A DNA stretch of 8,887 bases from a virus (taxonomy: Duplodnaviria; Heunggongvirae; Uroviricota; Caudoviricetes): positions 1 through 8,887 of the IMG/VR virus record IMGVR_UViG_2778261251_000018; one strand, 5' to 3'. Shown piece after piece: positions 47 to 8,096 of this stretch. The notes beneath the pieces were generated by a model. It had not been told where the DNA came from and did not search any database. It worked only from the letters and a program-made list of their open reading frames with translations. The first letter of the stretch is position 1, and each line of letters starts with the position of its first letter. The position numbers and the translations under genes are program-made.

Positions 47-292
47 TTACCCGAAATCTGATTTATTCAACAAAGCCATGGTGAGGTTGAGAAAGAACTC
101 TGCGGGATCAACCTGCGTATATTTCCCGTAAAAAATTCGTAGGGCTATCCACGCAGCAGACAGAATCGCCAGGTAAGCAGTTAGTGAGATAAAAAAACGA
201 TAGCGGCCTGTTTTTTGAAAAAACATCAACCGCAGTGCCAGCATCAGACAGATAATTGCATTGGCATTGATGAGGACAGAGTGCAGGGTCAT
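47..292 (-). CDS. Small two-TM membrane protein, holin-like (putative lysis-cassette gene), 81 aa
   Basis: ORF-track ORF. ATG at 292-290 shares one nt with the upstream gene's TAA stop (TAATG). AAGGGG Shine-Dalgarno ~8 nt upstream. Two hydrophobic segments (res ~6-25 and ~33-54) and a short polar tail. Second gene after the putative Q/late promoter. Holin assignment is inferred from position and topology, not from recognised sequence identity. Confidence 0.45.
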   Translation of the reverse strand: MTLHSVLINANAIICLMLALRLMFFQKTGRYRFFISLTAYLAILSAAWIALRIFYGKYTQVDPAEFFLNLTMALLNKSDFG

Positions 293-675
293 TATTTCAT
301 CCCCTTATCTGATTTCCATAAACGAGCTTGTGACATGATCCGCAACAGTGATGTAACGCTGATTACTGATGCAACCAGTGCACCAATGGCGGGAGAGACT
401 TTTACTGTTACGGGAGGGTTCAGGTGACTCAGCACCGCATTCAGAATACCGGTAATGATGGCTGATGCTGTCTCAGCGCAATACACACCGCCAACAAACG
501 AAATGAGTGCGAAAATAACCTGCTTCCAGAATCGATGCTGCCCGGATGACAACACATAGAGAGCTGCGCCTGCCAGCGCACAGATCATCACTGCAGGTGT
601 TGCCTCAGGAAATAACGCAGCAAACGTCACCCCCGCCGAGCCAGCAGCAACGCCAGCGGTTAGAGGTTCAGACAT
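292..675 (-). CDS. Multi-TM membrane protein, putative holin or lysis-associated protein, 127 aa; first gene of the late operon
   Basis: ORF-track ORF. ATG at 675-673 with AGGAAA ~7 nt upstream. Three to four hydrophobic helices followed by a basic C-terminus (RIMSQARLWKSDKGMK), typical of holins. Lies immediately downstream of the pR'/tR'-like region. Confidence 0.5.
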   Translation of the reverse strand: MSEPLTAGVAAGSAGVTFAALFPEATPAVMICALAGAALYVLSSGQHRFWKQVIFALISFVGGVYCAETASAIITGILNAVLSHLNPPVTVKVSPAIGALVASVISVTSLLRIMSQARLWKSDKGMK

Positions 676-2374: not shown

Positions 2375-2406
2375 AGAAAATGGTGCCGGGTGTTCAGACC
2401 AGCACC
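2375..2406 (-). terminator. Intrinsic terminator between the small SOS-box gene and the DUF1367-DUF1364-Q operon (nin-region tR2-like)
   Basis: Minus-strand RNA GGUGCUGG-UCUGAACAC-CCGGCACC followed by AUUUUCU. 8-bp stem (7 Watson-Crick plus 1 G-U), 9-nt loop. The hairpin is better on the minus strand than the plus strand (G-U versus C-A). Confidence 0.45.
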
Positions 2407-2422
2407 AGTATTATACCGCGTA

Positions 2423-2602
2423 TTACGCGTCAGGGGGTGTAATAGTATATCCAGCTGTTTCTGCCAACTCGAGAAACGCCAGCAGGCTGGCAATCCGCTC
2501 GTCGTCGCTGAGGACGCGTACAATCACTACGCGCCCCTCTTCTCGTTTGATTACAGCCCGGCACGTATCCGGTAATTTGCTGATCGCCTCGTGTGTGTTC
2601 AT
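2423..2602 (-). CDS. Small hypothetical protein, 59 aa (MNTHEAISKLPDTCRAVIKREEGRVVIVRVLSDDERIASLLAFLELAETAGYTITPPDA), candidate SOS-induced regulator
   Basis: Not in the ORF track (below 60 aa); translated by hand. ATG at 2602-2600, TAA at 2425-2423. GGGGGA Shine-Dalgarno 5-10 nt upstream. Sits between a LexA-box promoter and a terminator, forming a self-contained transcription unit. Confidence 0.5.
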   Translation of the reverse strand: MNTHEAISKLPDTCRAVIKREEGRVVIVRVLSDDERIASLLAFLELAETAGYTITPPDA

Positions 2603-2620
2603 ATTTCCCCCTGACAGAAA

Positions 2621-2640
2621 CCCTGTATATATATACAGTA
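2621..2640. promoter_or_regulatory. LexA (SOS) box, perfect match to the CTGT-N8-ACAG consensus
   Basis: ccCTGTATATATATACAGta; core at 2623-2638 is CTGT + (AT)4 + ACAG, matching the E. coli LexA consensus TACTGTATATATATACAGTA. Overlaps the -10 of the minus-strand promoter. Confidence 0.75.
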
Positions 2641-2658
2641 TTTTTTATCGTATGTCAT
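2630..2658 (-). promoter_or_regulatory. Sigma70-like promoter for the 59-aa gene, with the -10 inside the LexA box
   Basis: Minus strand: -35 ATGACA (plus 2653-2658), 17-bp spacer, -10 TATATA (plus 2630-2635). Predicted start ~20 nt upstream of the ATG at 2602. Confidence 0.45.
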
Positions 2659-2715
2659 AACATCAAATGCAATGGGGGAATAATGAGCAATTATATTCAC
2701 CGCGTGAATTTGATT

Positions 2716-2746
2716 AAACGGTTTATTCCCGGAAAAAACGGTTTAT
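2716..2746. repeat. Tandem direct repeat of AAACGGTTTAT, two copies 20 bp apart
   Basis: Copies at 2716-2726 and 2736-2746. Each copy is internally near-palindromic (AAAC-G-GTTT). Located ~60-90 bp upstream of the LexA-box promoter and just past the stop of the 210-aa gene. Confidence 0.4.
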
Positions 2747-2751
2747 GGTTA

Positions 2752-3384
2752 TTATTTTTCATTTCCATAAACATGGGTTAACCATTTTCTAATAGTTGAC
2801 TCCGCCGGAACGTCAGCATATTTTTTTACGAGAATTTCGTTAATACGTGCCACCGCCGCACTAACCCGTGCGTGGGGATTATTTGTGAAAAAAACCTCTG
2901 CAATCTGTAATGCCTCGTCTTTTAGCCTGTGCTGTGGCCTCCCTCCGCCCTTTGTTCCCAGATAACGCGCCAGTTGTTTGAACCGGTACGCCACGATTAG
3001 TGGCCGCATCATCATATTGAAAAAATCACGTGCATCGTCGTCCTCTCCTCGCGCTATCAACAGCGCAAAAAACAGGTACGGTATTGTATATACGTCAGGG
3101 GAAATCATTACGCGCCTGCACACAGTCGGCGCCAGTGCGATCAGTGTGTCTGCCAGCGCGTCGCTCTCTCCTCCACGTTTGTAATACCGGTAGAGTGGTC
3201 CTAAGTCGAGTTCACTGGTATTGAATCCAGTCACAGCCTCACGAACCTCGTCTGCCAGCGCGTTGTAAATCGCCCCTGTACGTTTTGTGTAGAGTCTCCG
3301 GGTTGCCCCCCGGTTATCCAGCGCCCGCAGCATGTCAAGTCGGGTGACAAACGTTTCAGGCCAGTCCTCATAGAATGATCTCAT
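2752..3384 (-). CDS. Hypothetical protein, 210 aa; unknown-function accessory (moron-like) gene
   Basis: ORF-track ORF 2752..3420, trimmed to the ATG at 3384 (MRSFYEDWPE...), which has a GAGGTG Shine-Dalgarno ~7 nt upstream. The 12 extra N-terminal codons have no ribosome-binding site. No family recognised. Confidence 0.7.
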   Translation of the reverse strand: MRSFYEDWPETFVTRLDMLRALDNRGATRRLYTKRTGAIYNALADEVREAVTGFNTSELDLGPLYRYYKRGGESDALADTLIALAPTVCRRVMISPDVYTIPYLFFALLIARGEDDDARDFFNMMMRPLIVAYRFKQLARYLGTKGGGRPQHRLKDEALQIAEVFFTNNPHARVSAAVARINEILVKKYADVPAESTIRKWLTHVYGNEK

Positions 3385-3625
3385 ATCCACCTCGAATAAT
3401 AAAAACAGCACTATTTGCACAATTTATTATTCGTTGTCGCATCGCAGAGTTCTATAAAAAGAAAACCCGCCGAGTCAGGGTTTTGTTATGACTCGTGAAA
3501 CAACCATCCAAGTTTTTAGACTGAACGGTGATACTTGCAAATATTTGAAAATATGGGCTGGGCCCCTATCTTATGATGTGCCTGGTAATTTATATTGTTG
3601 GGTCTTTATATCATGAGGAATCACT

Positions 3626-3859
3626 ATGGGTACGTTAGGCAACCAGCCGTGCAGAAGTCGTTATGAGTTCGATGATTTTAATTTAGCCAATCGGGCTGAG
3701 GCTCTTACTAAGTTAGCAAAAGAAACTGATGTATCGGTAGATACTTTAATCAAACTTGAAATTGCTATGCAACTGAATCGGCTCAACTCCATCCTTATCG
3801 AAAACGGTGACAAGATGGATGAGAACCTGGCAGGTATTGGCGAGATACTGCAGAAGTGA
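3626..3859 (+). CDS. Hypothetical small protein, 77 aa; only convincing plus-strand gene
   Basis: ORF-track ORF. GAGGAA Shine-Dalgarno 7 nt upstream. Followed 5 nt after the stop by a GC-rich hairpin. Divergent from the 210-aa gene across a 240-bp AT-rich intergenic region. Confidence 0.6.
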   Translation: MGTLGNQPCRSRYEFDDFNLANRAEALTKLAKETDVSVDTLIKLEIAMQLNRLNSILIENGDKMDENLAGIGEILQK

Positions 3860-3863
3860 GAAT

Positions 3864-3883
3864 AGCCCCTCTTTTGAGGGGCT
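3864..3883 (+). terminator. Stem-loop terminator candidate after the 77-aa gene
   Basis: AGCCCCTC-tttt-GAGGGGCT: perfect 8-bp GC-rich stem with a 4-nt loop. The downstream U-tract is weak (gcaccTTTaaT) and a second hairpin (GCACCTT-taat-AAGGTGC, 3881-3898) abuts it. Confidence 0.4.
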
Positions 3884-3996
3884 GCACCTTTAATAAGGTG
3901 CGATATTCTTCACGTTTCACCGTCACCTGGGTGCTCAGTACCGTTGAAAACGGTATTCAGAAACTGGTAATCATGTCAATCACCTGGAAAGGCAAG

Positions 3997-4033
3997 CCCC
4001 GCGAGATGGTGAGGCTACCGGAGCATCGCGGGG
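3997..4033 (-). terminator. Hairpin just past the stop of the 226-aa membrane-protein gene
   Basis: CCCCGCGA ... TCGCGGGG: 8-bp GC-rich arms with a 21-nt loop, starting 4 nt after the stop at 4037. The following sequence is only moderately U-rich, so the call is weak. Confidence 0.3.
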
Positions 4034-4036
4034 ATA

Positions 4037-4717
4037 CTATTCGGCACTTGTGTTAGGTTGCTGAGCGTTCTCGTTTTTGTCTTTATTAAATTGAATGTTT
4101 GGCTGTTGGAATAACGATCCCTGCAGATTTTTAAACGCTCCATCCACAATGTCGTCTCTGGATTTTTGTGGCAATGCCCAAGTACAAATACCATAGACAA
4201 TGACAGCGAAGGTTATTGTGGCGAAAATGCTGGCAAACCCATTCCAGTACCATCCTAACGAGCGGGAAACACGCCCACGTTTGCGTGCCTGGGTGATTTC
4301 AACCATGCGATGAAAATTGAGAATAGCATCCTCTCCAGCCTTCCTTAGCTCGCTCTCACGTGATGCTTTCATAGCCTGTATTTCTGCTTTCAGCCGTTCT
4401 ATTTCAACATCCTGCAAGTTAGCACCGGCTAACTGTGCATCGTACTCAAGCCGGATATCAGCATCTATCTGGTCTGTTAAGTTTGTGACGATGGCTTCTG
4501 CTTTTTCTTTGTAAGACTCAATTCGGCCTGGCGAGTTAACTGTCTGCTCATGAAAGATCTTCAGTTGGGCGTTAATATCTTCTTCTGTATATTCGCCACT
4601 ACTACGCAACTTCTCTGCATATTCATTTTTGTCGTGCTTATAGAGCGCGTAAGCCAAAAAGCCAGATGTGTCATCTTTCCCTGTAACTAATTGAGTAAAA
4701 ACCCAGAGCTTTTCCAT
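4037..4717 (-). CDS. Coiled-coil protein with a single C-terminal transmembrane helix, 226 aa; candidate membrane-anchored exclusion or abortive-infection effector
   Basis: ORF-track ORF 4037..4765, trimmed to the ATG at 4717 (MEKLWVFTQL...). The upstream 16 codons start at TTG and run through the terminator hairpin. Predicted helical heptad-like region (res ~75-130), hydrophobic stretch LGWYWNGFASIFATITFAVIVYGICTWAL (res ~155-182), Q/N-rich tail. No family recognised. Confidence 0.7.
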   Translation of the reverse strand: MEKLWVFTQLVTGKDDTSGFLAYALYKHDKNEYAEKLRSSGEYTEEDINAQLKIFHEQTVNSPGRIESYKEKAEAIVTNLTDQIDADIRLEYDAQLAGANLQDVEIERLKAEIQAMKASRESELRKAGEDAILNFHRMVEITQARKRGRVSRSLGWYWNGFASIFATITFAVIVYGICTWALPQKSRDDIVDGAFKNLQGSLFQQPNIQFNKDKNENAQQPNTSAE

Positions 4718-4730
4718 TTGGTTTTTCCGC

Positions 4731-4758
4731 AATAAAAAAGCGCCAGAAAAAGGCGCTT
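4731..4758 (-). terminator. Strong rho-independent terminator between the 64-aa gene and the 226-aa gene
   Basis: Minus-strand RNA AAGCGCC-UUUUUCU-GGCGCUU followed by UUUUAUU. 7-bp stem (4738-4744 with 4752-4758), 7-nt loop. Begins ~19 nt after the stop of the 64-aa gene and ends 14 nt before the ATG of the 226-aa gene. Confidence 0.7.
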
Positions 4759-4776
4759 TAATCAATTAAAGTAAAA

Positions 4777-4971
4777 TTATCCTTTGGCTACAACTGTCCT
4801 GAATGCACGATCCATCATTACTCGCGCAGTATCTCGTGATCTCTGTATTGAAGCAGAGCCAGAGGACATTGAAGCAGTAGGCTTAGCAGGGGCTCTATTT
4901 TGTGCTAATGCACTGCGAGCAATGTCAGCCTTACGGCTATCTGACAGTGGTCGAAGTTCATATTTAGCCAT
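4777..4971 (-). CDS. Small basic Ser/Ala/Arg-rich hypothetical protein, 64 aa
   Basis: ORF-track ORF. Near-ideal GGAGGA Shine-Dalgarno ending 4 nt before the ATG (GGAGGATAAATG). Canonical terminator just downstream. Preferred over the antisense ORF 4784..5152, which starts at TTG. Confidence 0.6.
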   Translation of the reverse strand: MAKYELRPLSDSRKADIARSALAQNRAPAKPTASMSSGSASIQRSRDTARVMMDRAFRTVVAKG

Positions 4972-4994
4972 TTATCCTCCCCATATATCCGGCG

Positions 4995-5034
4995 ATTATC
5001 CACAATCCAACACTGTTGACTATTCTGTGGATAG
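4995..5034 (-). promoter_or_regulatory. Promoter of the 64-aa gene flanked by inverted DnaA-box-like 9-mers (candidate operator)
   Basis: Minus strand: -35 TAGTCA (plus 5017-5022), 16-bp spacer, -10 GATAAT (plus 4995-5000). TTATCCACA at 4996-5004 matches the DnaA-box consensus TTATNCACA; its inverted partner TGTGGATAG at 5026-5034 is the complement of CTATCCACA. The perfect 8-bp arms are 21 bp apart. Confidence 0.3.
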
Positions 5035-5329
5035 TTTACCACAGACACCGTTAAATGCCATGTGCAGAATTGTCAAGCACTTAAACGACGAAAATCACTA
5101 TATGCAGGTTATTTTATTTCAGCTACCACTAGATGTAGTAAGTAGTCGCTAAAAATAAATAATGTTTGATAATGAAGTCGGTTTAAGAGCAGCTGGTCTG
5201 CGTTAGATGCAGGTACTCAGCTGGCTGCTTGCGCAGGATCGCCTCTGCGATAACAGGCATGCTCAGGCATTCTTTGCAAGCCACATCTGGATACCCCTTA
5301 TCAGACGATACGTAATATCCATCCAGCAT

Positions 5330-5878
5330 TCAAGGGTGCCACATACTCCCGCGAGTAAGAGTCAAACAGGATAGTAGTACATTGCTGGCATGTGAAAAAT
5401 TAGCTTCCTGGTCTTCGAGGTTGTAAGACCATTTTTCTCCATGGAAAAGATTATGCCGTAACCTAAAAATCACTTTGAACACAAAGCTGATTTTATCTTC
5501 AATTGTTGGAGACTGTATCTGAAGTAGCGTAACAAAGCGTTCTCTGATTGCATTCTTAACATACTCAGGCGGGGCCAGTTTATTGAAGCGGTAATCGCTA
5601 TCAGGGCTGTCTCGATAGCGTCGTATAAAATAACGATAGCAATCATCTATGGTCTGACTGTCCATGCCGTTATGCACAACCAGTTCCTGTGCCAGTGCGT
5701 CAGTTCTACCAAGGCCAGCAGCCATTGATGTTAACTTTGATTCAGCCAGGGAAAAATAAATCATAAAGCGACATAAGTTATCATATTGATTCTGATGAAA
5801 TGGTTGTGCTTGTAACAGATCTGCCAATTCGGCGACTACTGGGCGTGGGGCGTCTTCTACGATACTCACTTCCGACAT
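5330..5878 (-). CDS. Hypothetical protein with a C-terminal R-x4-H motif (HEPN-like, putative RNase), 182 aa
   Basis: ORF-track ORF. AAGGGAG Shine-Dalgarno ~6 nt upstream. Motif FRLRHNLFHGEKW (res ~139-151) contains R-H-N-L-F-H, matching the HEPN R-x(4-6)-H signature with a polar residue after the Arg. The fold is not verified. Confidence 0.6.
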   Translation of the reverse strand: MSEVSIVEDAPRPVVAELADLLQAQPFHQNQYDNLCRFMIYFSLAESKLTSMAAGLGRTDALAQELVVHNGMDSQTIDDCYRYFIRRYRDSPDSDYRFNKLAPPEYVKNAIRERFVTLLQIQSPTIEDKISFVFKVIFRLRHNLFHGEKWSYNLEDQEANFSHASNVLLSCLTLTRGSMWHP

Positions 5879-6399: not shown

Positions 6400-7458
6400 T
6401 TAATCATGTAAAGAGCAAAATTCTTTCAAAATATCAAATCTACGCTGTCTGTTATGACTCTTCTTTGAACCCTCTTGGCTGAGGAATCTATATTCCTCAA
6501 CCAGTGGATGGGGGTTATCTTGTTCATTTAACTCATAAATATTAAAAAAATCCTCGAGCTTTGAACTAATAACATTCATATCAACAAGCTTAGATTTACT
6601 AAGCTGTAAATAATAGTATGCCAGCACAAATATAAAATACAAATGGCCTTTTTTCTTTACAACTGATTCTAATACTTGTTTATTGTTGATAATTTGAGAT
6701 ATGATCCTTAACACTTCGTTAAAGATAATTCTGTCCTCAGTCGCCTCAGGGTAATTCTCATTGTATTGATCATACACTCGATTAATTGATTTTTGTGTAT
6801 TATCCTGCTCAATACCCATTCGTAAGAAAATCAATAATGTGCTGATGAATTGAATGTCTTGCATCCGACGGATATCTGACTGAGTAAATATCTTATAATT
6901 ATCCCAAAATTCATTTTGTGCAATTTCTTCGGCTAATCTTAAAAACTCGCCATTAAATTCAGCATTACGAAGTTCTTGAGGATTTAACGTAGTATTTGTT
7001 CTATTTAGACGTAAAAATAACTTTGCAATCTCATCATATCTCAATGATTCATTAATAAATCTGGATGAGAATTGGTATCGCCAAAAATCACGTTTGTTAT
7101 CTGCCGACAATTCTGAAAAAATTTTCCCACTATAGTCGGCTTCTTTATCATCTATAGCTGCTTTGCTTAACTTAAACTCATCATTTAAATATCGCTGGAT
7201 TGTGGTTAGCCTTTGCTGTCCATCTACAATTGAATATTTAGTATCTCCAGTGTCAGGATCAGTATTATTTGCCCAAAGGTAAATCTCAGGGATTGGGTAG
7301 CCAATTAATATTGTCTCAATTAAGGCCACTTGGTCTTTTTGCTGCCAGATATATTTTCTCTGATATGAATTATCAACTGTAATAACACCTGATTTCAAAT
7401 TATCCGTCAACCATTTAATGTCTTTCGATTCAACTTTAATTAGATCAATAGCTCTCAT
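6400..7458 (-). CDS. DUF262 (ParB/Srx-fold, GmrS-like N-terminal NTPase domain) protein, 352 aa, without a recognisable DUF1524/HNH nuclease module
   Basis: ORF-track ORF. DUF262 hallmark motifs read directly: YQRKYIW (res 32-38) and DGQQR (res 79-83, nt 7210-7224). AGGA Shine-Dalgarno 9 nt upstream. ATG overlaps the NTase stop (ATGA). The C-terminal ~200 aa is low-complexity K/N/Y-rich, with no His-Me finger seen by eye. Confidence 0.85.
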   Translation of the reverse strand: MRAIDLIKVESKDIKWLTDNLKSGVITVDNSYQRKYIWQQKDQVALIETILIGYPIPEIYLWANNTDPDTGDTKYSIVDGQQRLTTIQRYLNDEFKLSKAAIDDKEADYSGKIFSELSADNKRDFWRYQFSSRFINESLRYDEIAKLFLRLNRTNTTLNPQELRNAEFNGEFLRLAEEIAQNEFWDNYKIFTQSDIRRMQDIQFISTLLIFLRMGIEQDNTQKSINRVYDQYNENYPEATEDRIIFNEVLRIISQIINNKQVLESVVKKKGHLYFIFVLAYYYLQLSKSKLVDMNVISSKLEDFFNIYELNEQDNPHPLVEEYRFLSQEGSKKSHNRQRRFDILKEFCSLHD

Positions 7459-8045
7459 ATCAATTGTCCTTGTAACTTATCTTTTAGACTATTCAACCCA
7501 GCTATGTGATAGCGTTCAACGGACTCCCAAGAGTCATAAATTCTGTAGTTGATGTCGTTAGGTATTCCAAAAATAGTTTGAATGTCTTTTTTTAATGGTT
7601 CAACGTTACGGGACCATTTATTAAAAAAATCGACTCTAATATCTAACTCCTTCAATGACACGAATCCTTTGAAAATATTTTTAGCTACAGGAGCATATAC
7701 AGGCAAATAATTCTTTGATTGTAATTCAATAAATGCCATCCAGGAAGATTTATAAATTCTGTCGGATACTAAAACCAAGTCTATATCTGACTCATCGTTA
7801 AATGTTCGATAATTTTTATCAGGGCTCAAGCTGAATCCCATCTTAGCACTTCCAACAATTGCAATATTATTTACATGAATTTCAAGCTTCTTAGACATAT
7901 ATAGCTTAAACTCATCATAATCTTTAGCAAAGGTTATTGATTTTTTTTGTTCCCGAAAATACCAAATGTCATGTCCTAAAAGGTATCGTTGGTAGACATC
8001 GCGGATATCGTCGGATAGTAGCTTTTCCTTAAATTCATTTAACAT
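7455..8045 (-). CDS. Minimal nucleotidyltransferase (Pol-beta superfamily, MNT/SMODS-like), ~196 aa
   Basis: ORF-track ORF 7455..8069 starts at TTG; the first ATG is at 8045 (MLNEFKEKLL...). Neither start has a strong ribosome-binding site. NTase signature read directly: IVGSAKMG (GS motif, nt ~7848-7856), then NDESDIDLVLV (acidic D-x-D pair, nt 7779-7787), then LDIRVD as a likely third acidic residue. Confidence 0.8.
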   Translation of the reverse strand: MLNEFKEKLLSDDIRDVYQRYLLGHDIWYFREQKKSITFAKDYDEFKLYMSKKLEIHVNNIAIVGSAKMGFSLSPDKNYRTFNDESDIDLVLVSDRIYKSSWMAFIELQSKNYLPVYAPVAKNIFKGFVSLKELDIRVDFFNKWSRNVEPLKKDIQTIFGIPNDINYRIYDSWESVERYHIAGLNSLKDKLQGQLI

Positions 8046-8096
8046 TTTCTTGTGCGCCCCTATTGACAAGAACTGTAGATTAGCTGTTACATTTCC

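What the first reader, a model, noticed from the sequence alone, without database searches (positions are those of the whole stretch)
4037..5036. Two-gene cassette: small basic protein, strong intrinsic terminator, then a coiled-coil single-pass membrane protein
Seen in sequence: a 64-aa basic protein with a near-ideal GGAGGA ribosome-binding site is followed by a canonical terminator (4731-4758). Only 14 nt later comes the ATG of a 226-aa protein with a long helical region and one C-terminal transmembrane helix. There is no room for a separate conventional promoter, so the membrane protein must be expressed by terminator read-through or from a promoter overlapping the hairpin (TTGTAG-N17-TTTAAT on the minus strand, 4765-4793). 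Inference: this gives high expression of the small protein and low expression of the membrane protein, as expected for a regulator or antitoxin paired with a membrane-damaging exclusion or abortive-infection effector. Neither protein was recognised.
Basis: partly seen in the sequence, partly recalled or inferred. Interest (0 to 1): 0.5.

Follow-up and report, generated by a model that had tools for sequence, protein, structure and literature searches.

The report
Mobile two-gene operon with internal terminator
A small basic protein gene, a leaky transcription stop signal and a membrane-anchored rod-shaped protein gene form a conserved, mobile two-gene unit of unknown function that sits as optional cargo in an E. 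coli prophage; it is a plausible but unproven new toxin-antitoxin-like or anti-phage module.

Summary
All of it lies on the minus strand.
- A 64-aa basic ORF (4971-4777) has a GGAGGA ribosome-binding site.
- An intrinsic terminator follows (hairpin 4759-4737 plus T-run).
- A 226-aa ORF (4717-4037) follows. It has an acidic three-helix head, an ~80-residue helix and one C-terminal membrane helix.

New evidence:
- The 64-aa ORF is missing from RefSeq annotation but is a true gene (pN/pS 0.26-0.6, in-frame indels).
- The pair is a self-contained ~1.16-kb unit (5146-3984). It occurs in prophages, plasmids, a P1-like phage-plasmid and chromosomal sites.
- In every related lineage but one, a small partner gene with the same C-terminal motif lies 55-64 nt upstream. 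The spacer holds a terminator hairpin with six different stem sequences, down to 24% identity of the large protein.
- The slot in the prophage is variable: the flank occurs in 438 E. coli genomes and the cassette in 8.

Neither protein matches Pfam, NCBIfam, PADLOC or any solved structure. The large protein belongs to an unnamed family of 259 clusters at 50% identity.

The proposed internal promoter is not. The antitoxin/abortive-infection role remains inference.

The parts
3984..5146 (-). Core of the mobile two-gene cassette: the stretch shared with copies in unrelated contexts
   Evidence: blastn of the window against loci from plasmids, chromosomes and a phage-tail-adjacent site. Homology runs 5146->3984 at 91-92% (L009, L010, L011) and 74-85% in L004 and L006; the shortest shared stretch is L005 (76%, 5083->4089). 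Flanks are unrelated.
5033..5061 (-). Best candidate promoter of the operon: -35-like ATGGCA (5061-5056), 17-nt spacer, extended -10 TGgTAAACT (5041-5033)
   Evidence: Read from the sequence. TG-n-TAAACT is invariant in 7 of 7 diverged cassettes. It is inferred, not mapped. A second candidate, TAGTCA-N16-GATAAT (5022-4995), came from the scan, but its -10 is GATAAC in 4 of 7 copies.
5025..5044 (-). Palindrome CTGTGG-N8-CCACAG overlapping the -10; contains the DnaA-box-like CTATCCACA (5034-5026)
   Evidence: Conserved in 6 of 7 diverged copies. A role as an operator is inferred.
4996..5004 (+). Perfect DnaA-box 9-mer TTATCCACA in the 5' leader, on the opposite strand
   Evidence: Invariant in 7 of 7 cassettes. 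However, the whole leader is highly conserved, and 5 one-mismatch matches in the window are not significant (22 of 200 shuffles reach 5).
4975..4980 (-). Shine-Dalgarno sequence GGAGGA of the small gene
   Evidence: GGGGAGGA is kept in all close copies but L005 (GAGGGGGA); AAGGAGGGAG in Providencia.
4777..4971 (-). 64-aa basic partner protein (real CDS, unannotated in RefSeq)
   Evidence: The ORF is intact in every lineage, with in-frame indels confined to the S/T/A-rich linker. pN/pS is 0.41-0.64 overall and 0.26-0.27 at the conserved termini against L004 and L005 (0.37-0.55 against the more distant L016 and L022), while pS is 0.5-0.75. Conserved N-terminus MAKYELRPLSDSRKADI.RSAL and C-terminus MMDRAFR. 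pI 11.5. No Pfam, PHROG, PADLOC, NCBIfam or PDB match.
4731..4759 (-). Intercistronic intrinsic terminator (8-bp stem, 7-nt loop, T-run)
   Evidence: Scan hit. -12.5 kcal/mol, z = -4.2. A hairpin lies in the same spacer in all related lineages with different stems: GCGCC/GGCGC, CGCCAC/GTGGCG, AUGCCGC/GCGGCAU, CCCCUAAAAUAGA/UCUAUUUUGGGG, GCCCC/GGGGC+U8.
4708..4741 (-). Predicted alternative RNA helix: terminator 3' arm and U-tract (4741-4731) paired with AAAUGGAAAAGC (4719-4708), which contains the start codon of the large gene
   Evidence: It is part of the minimum-free-energy fold in all six copies folded from the Enterobacter/E. coli/Pectobacterium clade. It is not predicted in Providencia, Klebsiella or L018 copies. 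There is no covariation test, so this is inference.
4037..4717 (-). 226-aa tail-anchored membrane protein
   Evidence: Annotated as hypothetical WP_064226194.1. PHROG 25194, E = 2.5e-23, function unknown. Unnamed family of 259 clusters at 50% identity. AlphaFold2 mean pLDDT 87.
4532..4717 (-). Conserved acidic N-terminal head (residues 1-62, three helices)
4280..4531 (-). Long single helix / coiled-coil stalk (residues 63-146)
   Evidence: AlphaFold2 helix 63-143 with pLDDT of at least 91. Sequence and length vary across the family. Only generic coiled-coil fold hits.
4172..4243 (-). Single C-terminal transmembrane helix (residues ~159-182), N-terminus inside
   Evidence: Hydropathy maximum at residues 160-182, no charged residues, preceded by the basic patch RKRGRVSRS. 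Helix 162-181 in the model. W156 nearly invariant and G160 invariant.
3997..4033 (-). 3' hairpin after the large gene (CCCCGCGA...TCGCGGGG) followed by CTTGCCTTTCC; probable weak terminator marking the cassette end
   Evidence: Fold of 3965-4045 gives -27.2 kcal/mol, z = -2.0. Cassette homology ends at 3984.
4765..4793 (-).
   Evidence: 7 of 12 consensus matches and not called by the scan. The -10 is not conserved.

Best explanation
This is a self-contained two-gene operon that moves horizontally. In this window it sits as optional cargo in a variable slot of a lambdoid E. coli prophage, between the replication genes and the Q antiterminator.

How it is expressed: a promoter region upstream of 4983 drives a strongly translated 64-aa basic protein. 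Eighteen nucleotides after its stop codon, a moderately strong intrinsic terminator ends most transcripts. Only read-through RNA carries the 226-aa gene. That gene also lacks a good ribosome-binding site, and in this clade its start codon can pair with the terminator's U-tract. The cell should therefore make much of the small protein and little of the large one.

What the large protein looks like: it is anchored in the inner membrane by one C-terminal helix. It holds an acidic three-helix head in the cytoplasm on an ~80-residue helical stalk.

Inferred function: the small basic protein binds that head through its conserved C-terminal helix (motif M-x-x-R-A-F-R) and acts as its antidote or regulator. 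The pair would then work like a toxin-antitoxin, abortive-infection or exclusion module that benefits the mobile element carrying it.

Shown: gene structure, coding status of the small ORF, conservation of the terminator, strict pairing, mobility, lack of any known family.
Inferred: physical binding, toxicity or membrane action, and any anti-phage or addiction role.
For: Anatomy.

The small ORF is coding:
- pN/pS is 0.26-0.27 at its conserved termini against L004 and L005.
- Indels are in frame and confined to the linker.

Strict pairing with constant spacing:
- A 58-130-aa upstream gene ends in the same C-terminal ..AF.. helix motif in the following lineages: E. coli/Enterobacter/Pantoea/Pectobacterium copies, Providencia (large protein 53% identical), Klebsiella IncFIB plasmids (38%), a prophage-like contig (31%), a Photobacterium plasmid (27%) and the P1-like phage-plasmid pHYEC7-mcr1 (24%).
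- The spacer is 55-64 nt and holds a hairpin in every linease checked for it (Photobacterium was not), with six different stem sequences.

Autonomy and mobility:
- The same 1.16-kb core lies next to fimbrial genes, phage tail genes, IncFII/RepL/Rep3 replicons and housekeeping genes.
- The prophage flank is present in 438 E. coli genomes but the cassette in only 8. A related prophage carries other cargo at this spot.

Neighbourhoods:
- Neighbours are often toxin-antitoxin or defence loci: ParDE, TacAT, Zeta, MazEF, Csy1, and a DUF262/NsnA-like gene in the window.

Charge and conservation:
- Charges are complementary: the small protein carries about +8, and the head and stalk have pI ~5.
- The most conserved parts of the two proteins are the small protein's C-terminal helix and the large protein's head.

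Analogy from established knowledge: antitoxin-first operons make antitoxin in excess, and colicin operons place the membrane-active lysis gene behind a leaky terminator.
Against: - The small protein has no recognisable DNA-binding or antitoxin fold.
- Toxicity, binding and phage or plasmid phenotypes were not tested, and cannot be tested with these tools.
- Throttling is not universal. Klebsiella-plasmid relatives have a hairpin with a short T-run and a strong GGAGG. The Xenorhabdus relative has no hairpin and an unrelated 56-aa upstream gene.
- Known membrane toxins are usually much smaller than 226 aa.
- The promoter is inferred only.
- The alternative RNA helix has no covariation support. 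It could simply follow from an A-rich start (Met-Glu-Lys) lying next to a U-tract.
Confidence: 0.45

Rival explanations
1. Non-toxic superinfection-exclusion or entry-blocking module. The tail-anchored membrane protein sits at the inner membrane and blocks DNA entry of incoming phages or plasmids, as phage HK97 gp15 or P22 SieA do. The small protein is only its transcriptional or post-translational regulator.
For: - Inner-membrane location with a ~45-residue periplasmic tail that carries a motif conserved within the clade (LFQQPN).
- Carried by prophages, phage-plasmids and plasmids in cargo positions.
- From established knowledge, exclusion proteins are typical phage morons.
Against: - Most of the conserved mass (head and stalk) is cytoplasmic, not periplasmic.
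- A constitutively useful exclusion protein would not need a conserved terminator that keeps it scarce.
- Copies also sit between housekeeping genes with no mobile element to protect.
Confidence: 0.15
2. Maintenance or physiology module with no killing function. The membrane-anchored rod tethers or sequesters a cytoplasmic target at the membrane. Candidates are the element's DNA via the basic small protein, or a host division or replication factor. Expression is coupled to replication status through DnaA boxes.
For: - The small protein is very basic (pI 11.5) and could bind nucleic acid.
- Two DnaA-box-like 9-mers flank the likely transcription start and are conserved.
- Copies frequently lie near plasmid replicons.
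Against: - The head is acidic and shows no sequence relation to HMG boxes.
- The DnaA-box count in the window is not significant, and the whole leader is conserved.
- Chromosomal copies need no tethering.
- No partition or replication genes are consistently linked.
Confidence: 0.15
3. Two independent genes that merely sit side by side. The small gene is a complete promoter-gene-terminator moron. The membrane gene has its own promoter in or near the hairpin.
For: - A terminator directly after the small gene is what a stand-alone moron would have.
- AT-rich, -10-like hexamers (TTTAAT, TCTAAT) precede the hairpin in several copies.
Against: - The two genes never occur apart in the more than 20 distinct loci read, and the spacer length is fixed at 55-64 nt.
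- The proposed -35 and -10 elements are not conserved.
- A start site 7 nt after TTTAAT falls on the first base of the hairpin, so the transcript would still meet the terminator.
- There are only 13 nt between the T-run and the ATG.
Confidence: 0.1
4. The 64-aa ORF is not a gene (as RefSeq annotation implies). The 612-nt stretch would then be a non-coding leader or small RNA ending at the terminator that regulates the membrane gene.
For: - PGAP leaves it unannotated in three records.
- The middle of the ORF is low-complexity.
Against: - Purifying selection in this reading frame, with pN/pS down to 0.26 while synonymous sites are near saturation.
- In-frame indels only, and a conserved strong Shine-Dalgarno sequence.
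- Other gene callers call the ORF in JGI, NCBI and ENA assemblies.
- No Rfam match.
Confidence: 0.03

Closest known systems
Type II (or type IV-like) toxin-antitoxin operons with the antitoxin gene first
   Same: - A small two-gene unit that moves between plasmids, prophages and chromosomal islands.
- The small upstream protein has a disordered linker and is made in excess.
- The downstream product is kept scarce.
- The unit often sits beside other toxin-antitoxin loci (ParDE, TacAT, MazEF, Zeta).
   Different: - Neither protein belongs to any known toxin or antitoxin family.
- No RHH, HTH or AbrB domain is detectable in the small protein.
- The ratio is set by an intercistronic terminator rather than by translational coupling.
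- The putative effector is a 226-aa tail-anchored coiled-coil protein.
- Toxicity is unproven.
Colicin operons (for example ColE1, E2, E3, E7, E9): a leaky terminator placed before the lysis (kil/cel) gene
   Same: A membrane-active, potentially lethal product lies directly behind an intrinsic terminator, so only read-through transcripts encode it. The protective partner is encoded upstream. This comparison rests on established knowledge and was not tested here.
   Different: - There is no sequence relation.
- Colicin lysis proteins are small lipoproteins.
- Those operons are SOS-controlled, and no LexA box is evident here.
Phage morons (promoter-gene-terminator cargo, in the sense of Hendrix and colleagues) and prophage defence hotspots
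   Same: - Presence/absence polymorphism at one slot of otherwise related prophages (8 against 438 genomes).
- The cassette has terminators of its own and probably its own promoter.
- Its neighbours are defence-like: a DUF262/NsnA-like gene and a protein with an R-x4-H motif.
   Different: The same unit is equally at home on plasmids and in chromosomes, so it is not phage-specific cargo.
Membrane-acting abortive-infection or exclusion proteins (lambda RexB, P22 SieA/SieB, HK97 gp15)
   Same: A prophage-borne inner-membrane protein expressed from the lysogen with a soluble partner or regulator.
   Different: - No homology.
- The topology differs: a single C-terminal anchor with a large cytoplasmic rod, against multi-pass or short proteins.
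- No phenotype is known.
PHROG 25194 and PHROG 22648 (phage protein families of unknown function)
   Same: The 226-aa protein matches both over nearly its full length (E = 2.5e-23 and 3.8e-08).
   Different: These families carry no functional annotation, so the match only shows that relatives occur in phage genomes.

Membership tests
Rho-independent (intrinsic) terminator | G+C-rich stem-loop immediately followed by a T/U-run on the transcribed strand | tested here: met
   8-bp stem (5 G-C pairs), 7-nt loop, TTTTTTATT tail. -12.5 kcal/mol, z = -4.2.
Rho-independent (intrinsic) terminator | Structure maintained in evolution (pairing kept while sequence changes) | tested here: met
   Six different stem sequences occupy the same spacer position in homologous cassettes, and all form a hairpin. 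Five are followed by a U-run. The comparison was made by eye from folds; no formal covariation statistic was computed.
Rho-independent (intrinsic) terminator | Actual termination and its efficiency in vivo | not testable with these tools
   Needs Term-seq, Northern blots or a reporter read-through assay.
Type II toxin-antitoxin system | Two adjacent co-oriented genes, small antitoxin first, found on mobile elements | tested here: met
Type II toxin-antitoxin system | Toxin belongs to a recognised toxin superfamily | tested here: not met
   No Pfam, NCBIfam, PADLOC or PDB match for the 226-aa protein or for 42 diverse relatives.
Type II toxin-antitoxin system | Antitoxin carries a DNA-binding domain (RHH, HTH, AbrB, Phd/YefM) | tested here: not met
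   No family or PDB match for 11 small-protein homologues, even at E <= 1 for Pfam and E <= 10 for the PDB. No structure prediction could be run for it.
Type II toxin-antitoxin system | Toxin arrests growth and the antitoxin neutralises it by direct binding | not testable with these tools
An experiment is needed.
Known anti-phage defence systems (PADLOC-DB v2.0.0) | Significant match of a component to a system model | tested here: not met
   There are no hits for either protein. Relatives give only 13-18-bit matches of the coiled-coil stalk to LeoBC, JetC and LmuB, all long coiled-coil models.
Phage moron | Present or absent between otherwise conserved genes of related prophages | tested here: met
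   The flank 2400-3900 is in 438 E. coli genomes and the cassette in 8. Strain H105 carries ImmA/IrrE cargo at this spot.
Phage moron | Own promoter and own terminator | tested here: inconclusive
   The terminators are present. The conserved TG-n-TAAACT extended -10 with a 4/6 -35 is plausible, but it is below the scan threshold and unmapped.
Holin / spanin / other phage lysis proteins | Located in the lysis cassette, with family match or characteristic topology | tested here: not met
   The lysis genes lie elsewhere in the window (47-675, holins). There is no family match. The topology is N-in with a C-terminal anchor, unlike an i-spanin. The unit also occurs outside phages.
HMG-box domain | L-shaped three-helix fold | tested here: inconclusive
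   [not shown]
HMG-box domain | Sequence-profile match and a basic DNA-binding surface | tested here: not met
   No Pfam HMG_box hit. hhalign against HMGB1 box A gives probability 0.1. The head is acidic, pI 4.9.

The most novel reading that the evidence does not exclude
The pair founds a previously undescribed family of toxin-antitoxin-like or anti-phage systems spread across Gammaproteobacteria (at least 259 clusters at 50% identity).

In this reading, a membrane-tethered rod with an acidic, HMG-box-like head is the sensor-effector, and a small basic protein holds it in check. The ratio of the two is fixed by an anciently conserved intercistronic terminator, and in this clade also by a start-codon-masking RNA helix. 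The promoter is wired to replication status through DnaA boxes. Phage or plasmid replication, or read-through of the terminator by anti-terminated phage transcription, would then tip the balance and release the effector.
Probability: 0.25. Interest if true: 0.65.

Novelty: new variant of a known kind. Interest (0 to 1): 0.45.

Why it matters
If the functional inference holds, this is an unlisted two-gene addiction or defence module built from two protein families with no annotation anywhere. It is widespread on plasmids, phage-plasmids (including mcr-1-bearing P1-like plasmids) and prophages of Enterobacterales and Vibrionales.

It would also be a clean natural example of fixing protein stoichiometry with a conserved intercistronic terminator.

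Even without a known function, two practical points stand:
- Genome annotation pipelines systematically miss the small partner gene.
- The large protein defines a family that deserves a name and a test.

Tried and rejected
- Rfam on the whole window at E <= 1: only a chance RsaE-like match elsewhere.
- Pfam, NCBIfam, PADLOC and PHROG on both proteins: only function-unknown PHROGs for the large one.
- Pfam and PADLOC on 42 diverse relatives: scattered coiled-coil noise. LeoBC matched 19 of 42 members, but at 13-18 bits and only against a coiled-coil stretch, so it was rejected as compositional.
- Profile search of the PDB for both families: nothing below E = 0.01.
- First AlphaFold2 model from 9 close sequences was poor (pLDDT 65). 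The second, from 42 sequences, was good.
- hhalign against HMGB1: no relation.
- BFVD: nothing.
- The afdb50 library was unavailable.
- The phage collection gave no DNA or protein match.
- The search for related loci failed with the diverse alignments and gave few loci with the close one.
- dN/dS among the E. coli copies alone was uninformative because there were too few differences.
- Literature search by accession and PHROG id found nothing.
- The 182-aa upstream gene as a third component: rejected. It accompanies the cassette only in the E. coli prophage lineage.
- A domain-fusion search among longer family members found only a tandem duplication of the head.
Full report
1. WHAT IS THERE

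The finding lies on the minus strand.

The window is the early-right/nin-like region of a lambdoid E. coli prophage. In transcription order it carries:
- a 204-aa gene,
- a DUF262/GmrSD_N gene,
- a 182-aa gene,
- the cassette in question,
- a convergent 77-aa gene,
- a 222-aa gene and a 59-aa gene,
- DUF1367 and DUF1364 genes,
- antiterminator Q,
- two holins.

The small ORF runs 4971-4777 (64 aa). It is preceded by GGGGAGGA (4982-4975).

The hairpin AAAGCGCC-TTTTTCT-GGCGCTTT (4759-4737) plus a T-rich tail follows the stop codon after 17 nt.

The 226-aa ORF starts at 4717, 13 nt after the tail. It has no convincing Shine-Dalgarno sequence.

Folded alone, the hairpin gives -12.5 kcal/mol (z = -4.2). 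It is canonical in form but of moderate strength.

The small protein has pI 11.5.

The large protein has these parts:
- an acidic three-helix head (residues 1-62, pI 4.9),
- one ~80-residue helix,
- a basic juxtamembrane patch,
- a single hydrophobic helix (about residues 160-182),
- a ~45-residue tail.

The AlphaFold2 model built with a 42-sequence alignment has mean pLDDT 87. By the positive-inside rule the head and stalk are cytoplasmic.

2. IS THE SMALL ORF A GENE?

RefSeq leaves it unannotated in all three E. coli records read. Differences among the E. coli copies are too few to decide.

More distant cassettes settle it.
- The ORF is intact everywhere.
- Indels are in frame and confined to an S/T/A-rich linker.
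- The N-terminus (MAKYELRPLSDSRKADI.RSAL) and the C-terminus (MMDRAFR) are conserved.
- pN/pS is 0.41-0.64 overall and 0.26-0.27 at the termini against L004 and L005, while synonymous sites are half to three-quarters changed.

It is a real protein-coding gene.

3. IS IT A UNIT?

A word-indexed search found only 8 clusters (at 90% identity) related to the 226-aa protein. The exhaustive HMMER search found 259 cluster representatives (at 50% identity) with E <= 1e-3, and 104 with E <= 1e-10. Nearly all are 180-250 aa with the same head-stalk-anchor layout.

Every related locus I could read, except one, has a small gene just upstream whose product ends in the same helix motif (..AF..).

| Lineage | Identity of large protein |
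|---|---|
| Enterobacter/Pantoea/Pectobacterium/E. coli | 71-100% |
| Providencia | 53% |
| Klebsiella IncFIB plasmids | 38% |
| Prophage-like contig | 31% |
| Photobacterium plasmid | 27% |
| P1-like phage-plasmid pHYEC7-mcr1 (partner is 130 aa) | 24% |

The exception is a Xenorhabdus copy. It has an unrelated 56-aa upstream gene, a 31-nt spacer and no hairpin.

The spacer is 55-64 nt in all other lineages measured and always contains a hairpin. Its stems differ: GCGCC/GGCGC, GCGCCU/GGGCGC, CGCCAC/GUGGCG, AUGCCGC/GCGGCAU, CCCCUAAAAUAGA/UCUAUUUUGGGG and GCCCC/GGGGC+U8. Pairing that survives while the sequence is replaced is the signature of a selected structure.

The scan expects about 2.3 terminator-like sites per 3 kb on both strands. 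That is roughly 0.02 per 60-nt spacer on one strand.

The 182-aa upstream gene is not part of the unit. It accompanies the cassette only in the E. coli prophage lineage.

4. MOBILITY AND CONTEXT

Homology between the window and copies elsewhere runs from 5146 to 3984 and then stops.

The same core lies in these settings:
- next to fimbrial genes,
- after a phage baseplate module near a type I-F cas gene,
- on IncFII, RepL and Rep3 plasmids,
- between housekeeping genes.

It often sits beside ParDE, TacAT, Zeta or MazEF loci.

In several of those copies a slightly larger 1,458-bp unit is bounded by imperfect inverted repeats that include GTCCGC-N12-GCGGWC hairpins. This hints at mobilisation in trans. 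The window copy lacks these ends.

Within E. coli, the flanking prophage genes (2400-3900) occur in 438 of 5,426 complete genomes. The cassette occurs in 8. A related prophage carries an ImmA/IrrE pair at this position instead. The cassette is therefore optional cargo in a variable slot.

5. EXPRESSION LOGIC

Upstream conserved blocks are:
- TTGACA (5076-5071),
- ATGGCA-N17-TGgTAAACT (5061-5033),
- a palindrome CTGTGG-N8-CCACAG over the -10,
- a perfect TTATCCACA on the other strand (4996-5004),
- the ribosome-binding site.

TTGACA has no usable -10 at 16-18 nt. I take the extended -10 as the likeliest promoter, but it is unmapped.

Its transcript would start on the first base of the hairpin, so it would not bypass the terminator. 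Read-through is thus required in either case.

In the clade containing the window, the minimum-free-energy fold of the read-through RNA pairs the terminator's U-tract (4741-4731) with AAAUGGAAAAGC (4719-4708). That would mask the start codon. This would be a second brake. However, it lacks covariation support and is not seen in the more distant copies.

The Klebsiella-plasmid version has a short T-run and a strong GGAGG before the large gene. The degree of throttling therefore varies.

6. WHAT IT IS NOT, AND WHAT IT RESEMBLES

Neither protein matches Pfam, NCBIfam or PADLOC, and neither matches a solved structure by sequence.

PADLOC hits of relatives to LeoBC, JetC and LmuB are 13-18-bit coiled-coil matches.

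It is not a lysis gene. The lysis cassette lies elsewhere in the window, and the unit lives outside phages too.

7. MOST LIKELY MECHANISM

Shown: an autonomous operon in which a conserved leaky terminator and a poor translation start keep a tail-anchored membrane protein scarce relative to a small basic partner.

Inferred:
- The partner's conserved C-terminal helix binds the conserved acidic head.
- The partner restrains or regulates the membrane protein.
- The pair acts as an addiction, abortive-infection or exclusion module.

The inference rests on five things:
- the gene order,
- the expression ratio,
- the charge complementarity,
- the co-conservation of the two interacting-looking parts,
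- the mobile, toxin-antitoxin-rich neighbourhoods.

I put about 0.85 on the architectural and regulatory part. I put about 0.35-0.4 on the toxin-antitoxin-like or defence function, and 0.45 on the combined statement.

8. NOVELTY

The kind of thing (a small mobile two-gene module with an over-produced partner and a throttled effector) is familiar. The two protein families and the conserved intercistronic terminator are not described in any library or paper I could search. I rate it a new variant of a known kind, of moderate interest. It is a good candidate for a simple toxicity and phage-challenge experiment.

Noticed in passing
window 4777-4971 (-): RefSeq/PGAP does not annotate the 64-aa gene in any of the three E. 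coli records read and leaves a 612-nt 'intergenic' gap. Other pipelines (JGI, ENA, some NCBI records) do call it.
   Followed up: yes
window 4996-5004 (+) and 5026-5034 (-): A perfect DnaA-box 9-mer (TTATCCACA) and an 8/9 copy (CTATCCACA) flank the likely transcription start of the small gene. The second copy sits inside a palindrome CTGTGG-N8-CCACAG that overlaps the -10. They are conserved in 7/7 and 6/7 diverged cassettes, but the whole leader is conserved and the count in the window is not significant.
   Followed up: partly
window 4708-4741 (-): The predicted lowest-energy fold of read-through RNA pairs the terminator U-tract with the start codon region of the 226-aa gene. This holds in all six copies folded from the Enterobacter/E. 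coli/Pectobacterium clade and not in more distant relatives.
   Followed up: partly
L009/L010/L011 4770-6227; L010 4746-4786 and 6193-6233; L014 4558-4590 and 6186-6218: Outside prophages the cassette often lies in a 1,458-bp unit that is 97% identical between unrelated contexts. The unit is bounded by imperfect inverted repeats that contain GTCCGC-N12-GCGGWC hairpins. This suggests a non-autonomous mobile element. The window copy lacks these ends.
   Followed up: partly
window 5330-5878 (-): A 182-aa protein with an R-x4-H motif (RHNLFH) reminiscent of HEPN nucleases. It has no Pfam, PADLOC or PDB match and hits PHROG 27260 (function unknown). It travels with the cassette only in the E. coli prophage lineage.
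   Followed up: partly
window 6400-7458 (-) and 7455-8069 (-): A DUF262/GmrSD_N protein (PADLOC NsnA, E = 4e-41) overlaps by 4 nt with a 204-aa protein of unknown family. This is probably a separate defence pair in the same cargo region. It is absent from strains EC28 and JNE151685, which carry other genes there.
   Followed up: no
[not shown]
   Followed up: yes
L023 3538-4690 (pHYEC7-mcr1, IncY P1-like phage-plasmid): A distant copy of the module sits after the baseplate genes of mcr-1-bearing P1-like phage-plasmids. It has a 130-aa partner, a GCCCC/GGGGC+U8 terminator and a 233-aa large protein. It is absent from the phage collection searched.
   Followed up: partly
P0150 (291 aa family member): One relative carries two tandem copies of the conserved head domain before the stalk and anchor.
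   Followed up: no
window 3626-3859 (+): A 77-aa gene (PHROG 5550) lies convergent to the cassette. It belongs to the prophage backbone (present in the 438-genome flank) and marks the fixed edge of the variable cargo slot.
   Followed up: partly
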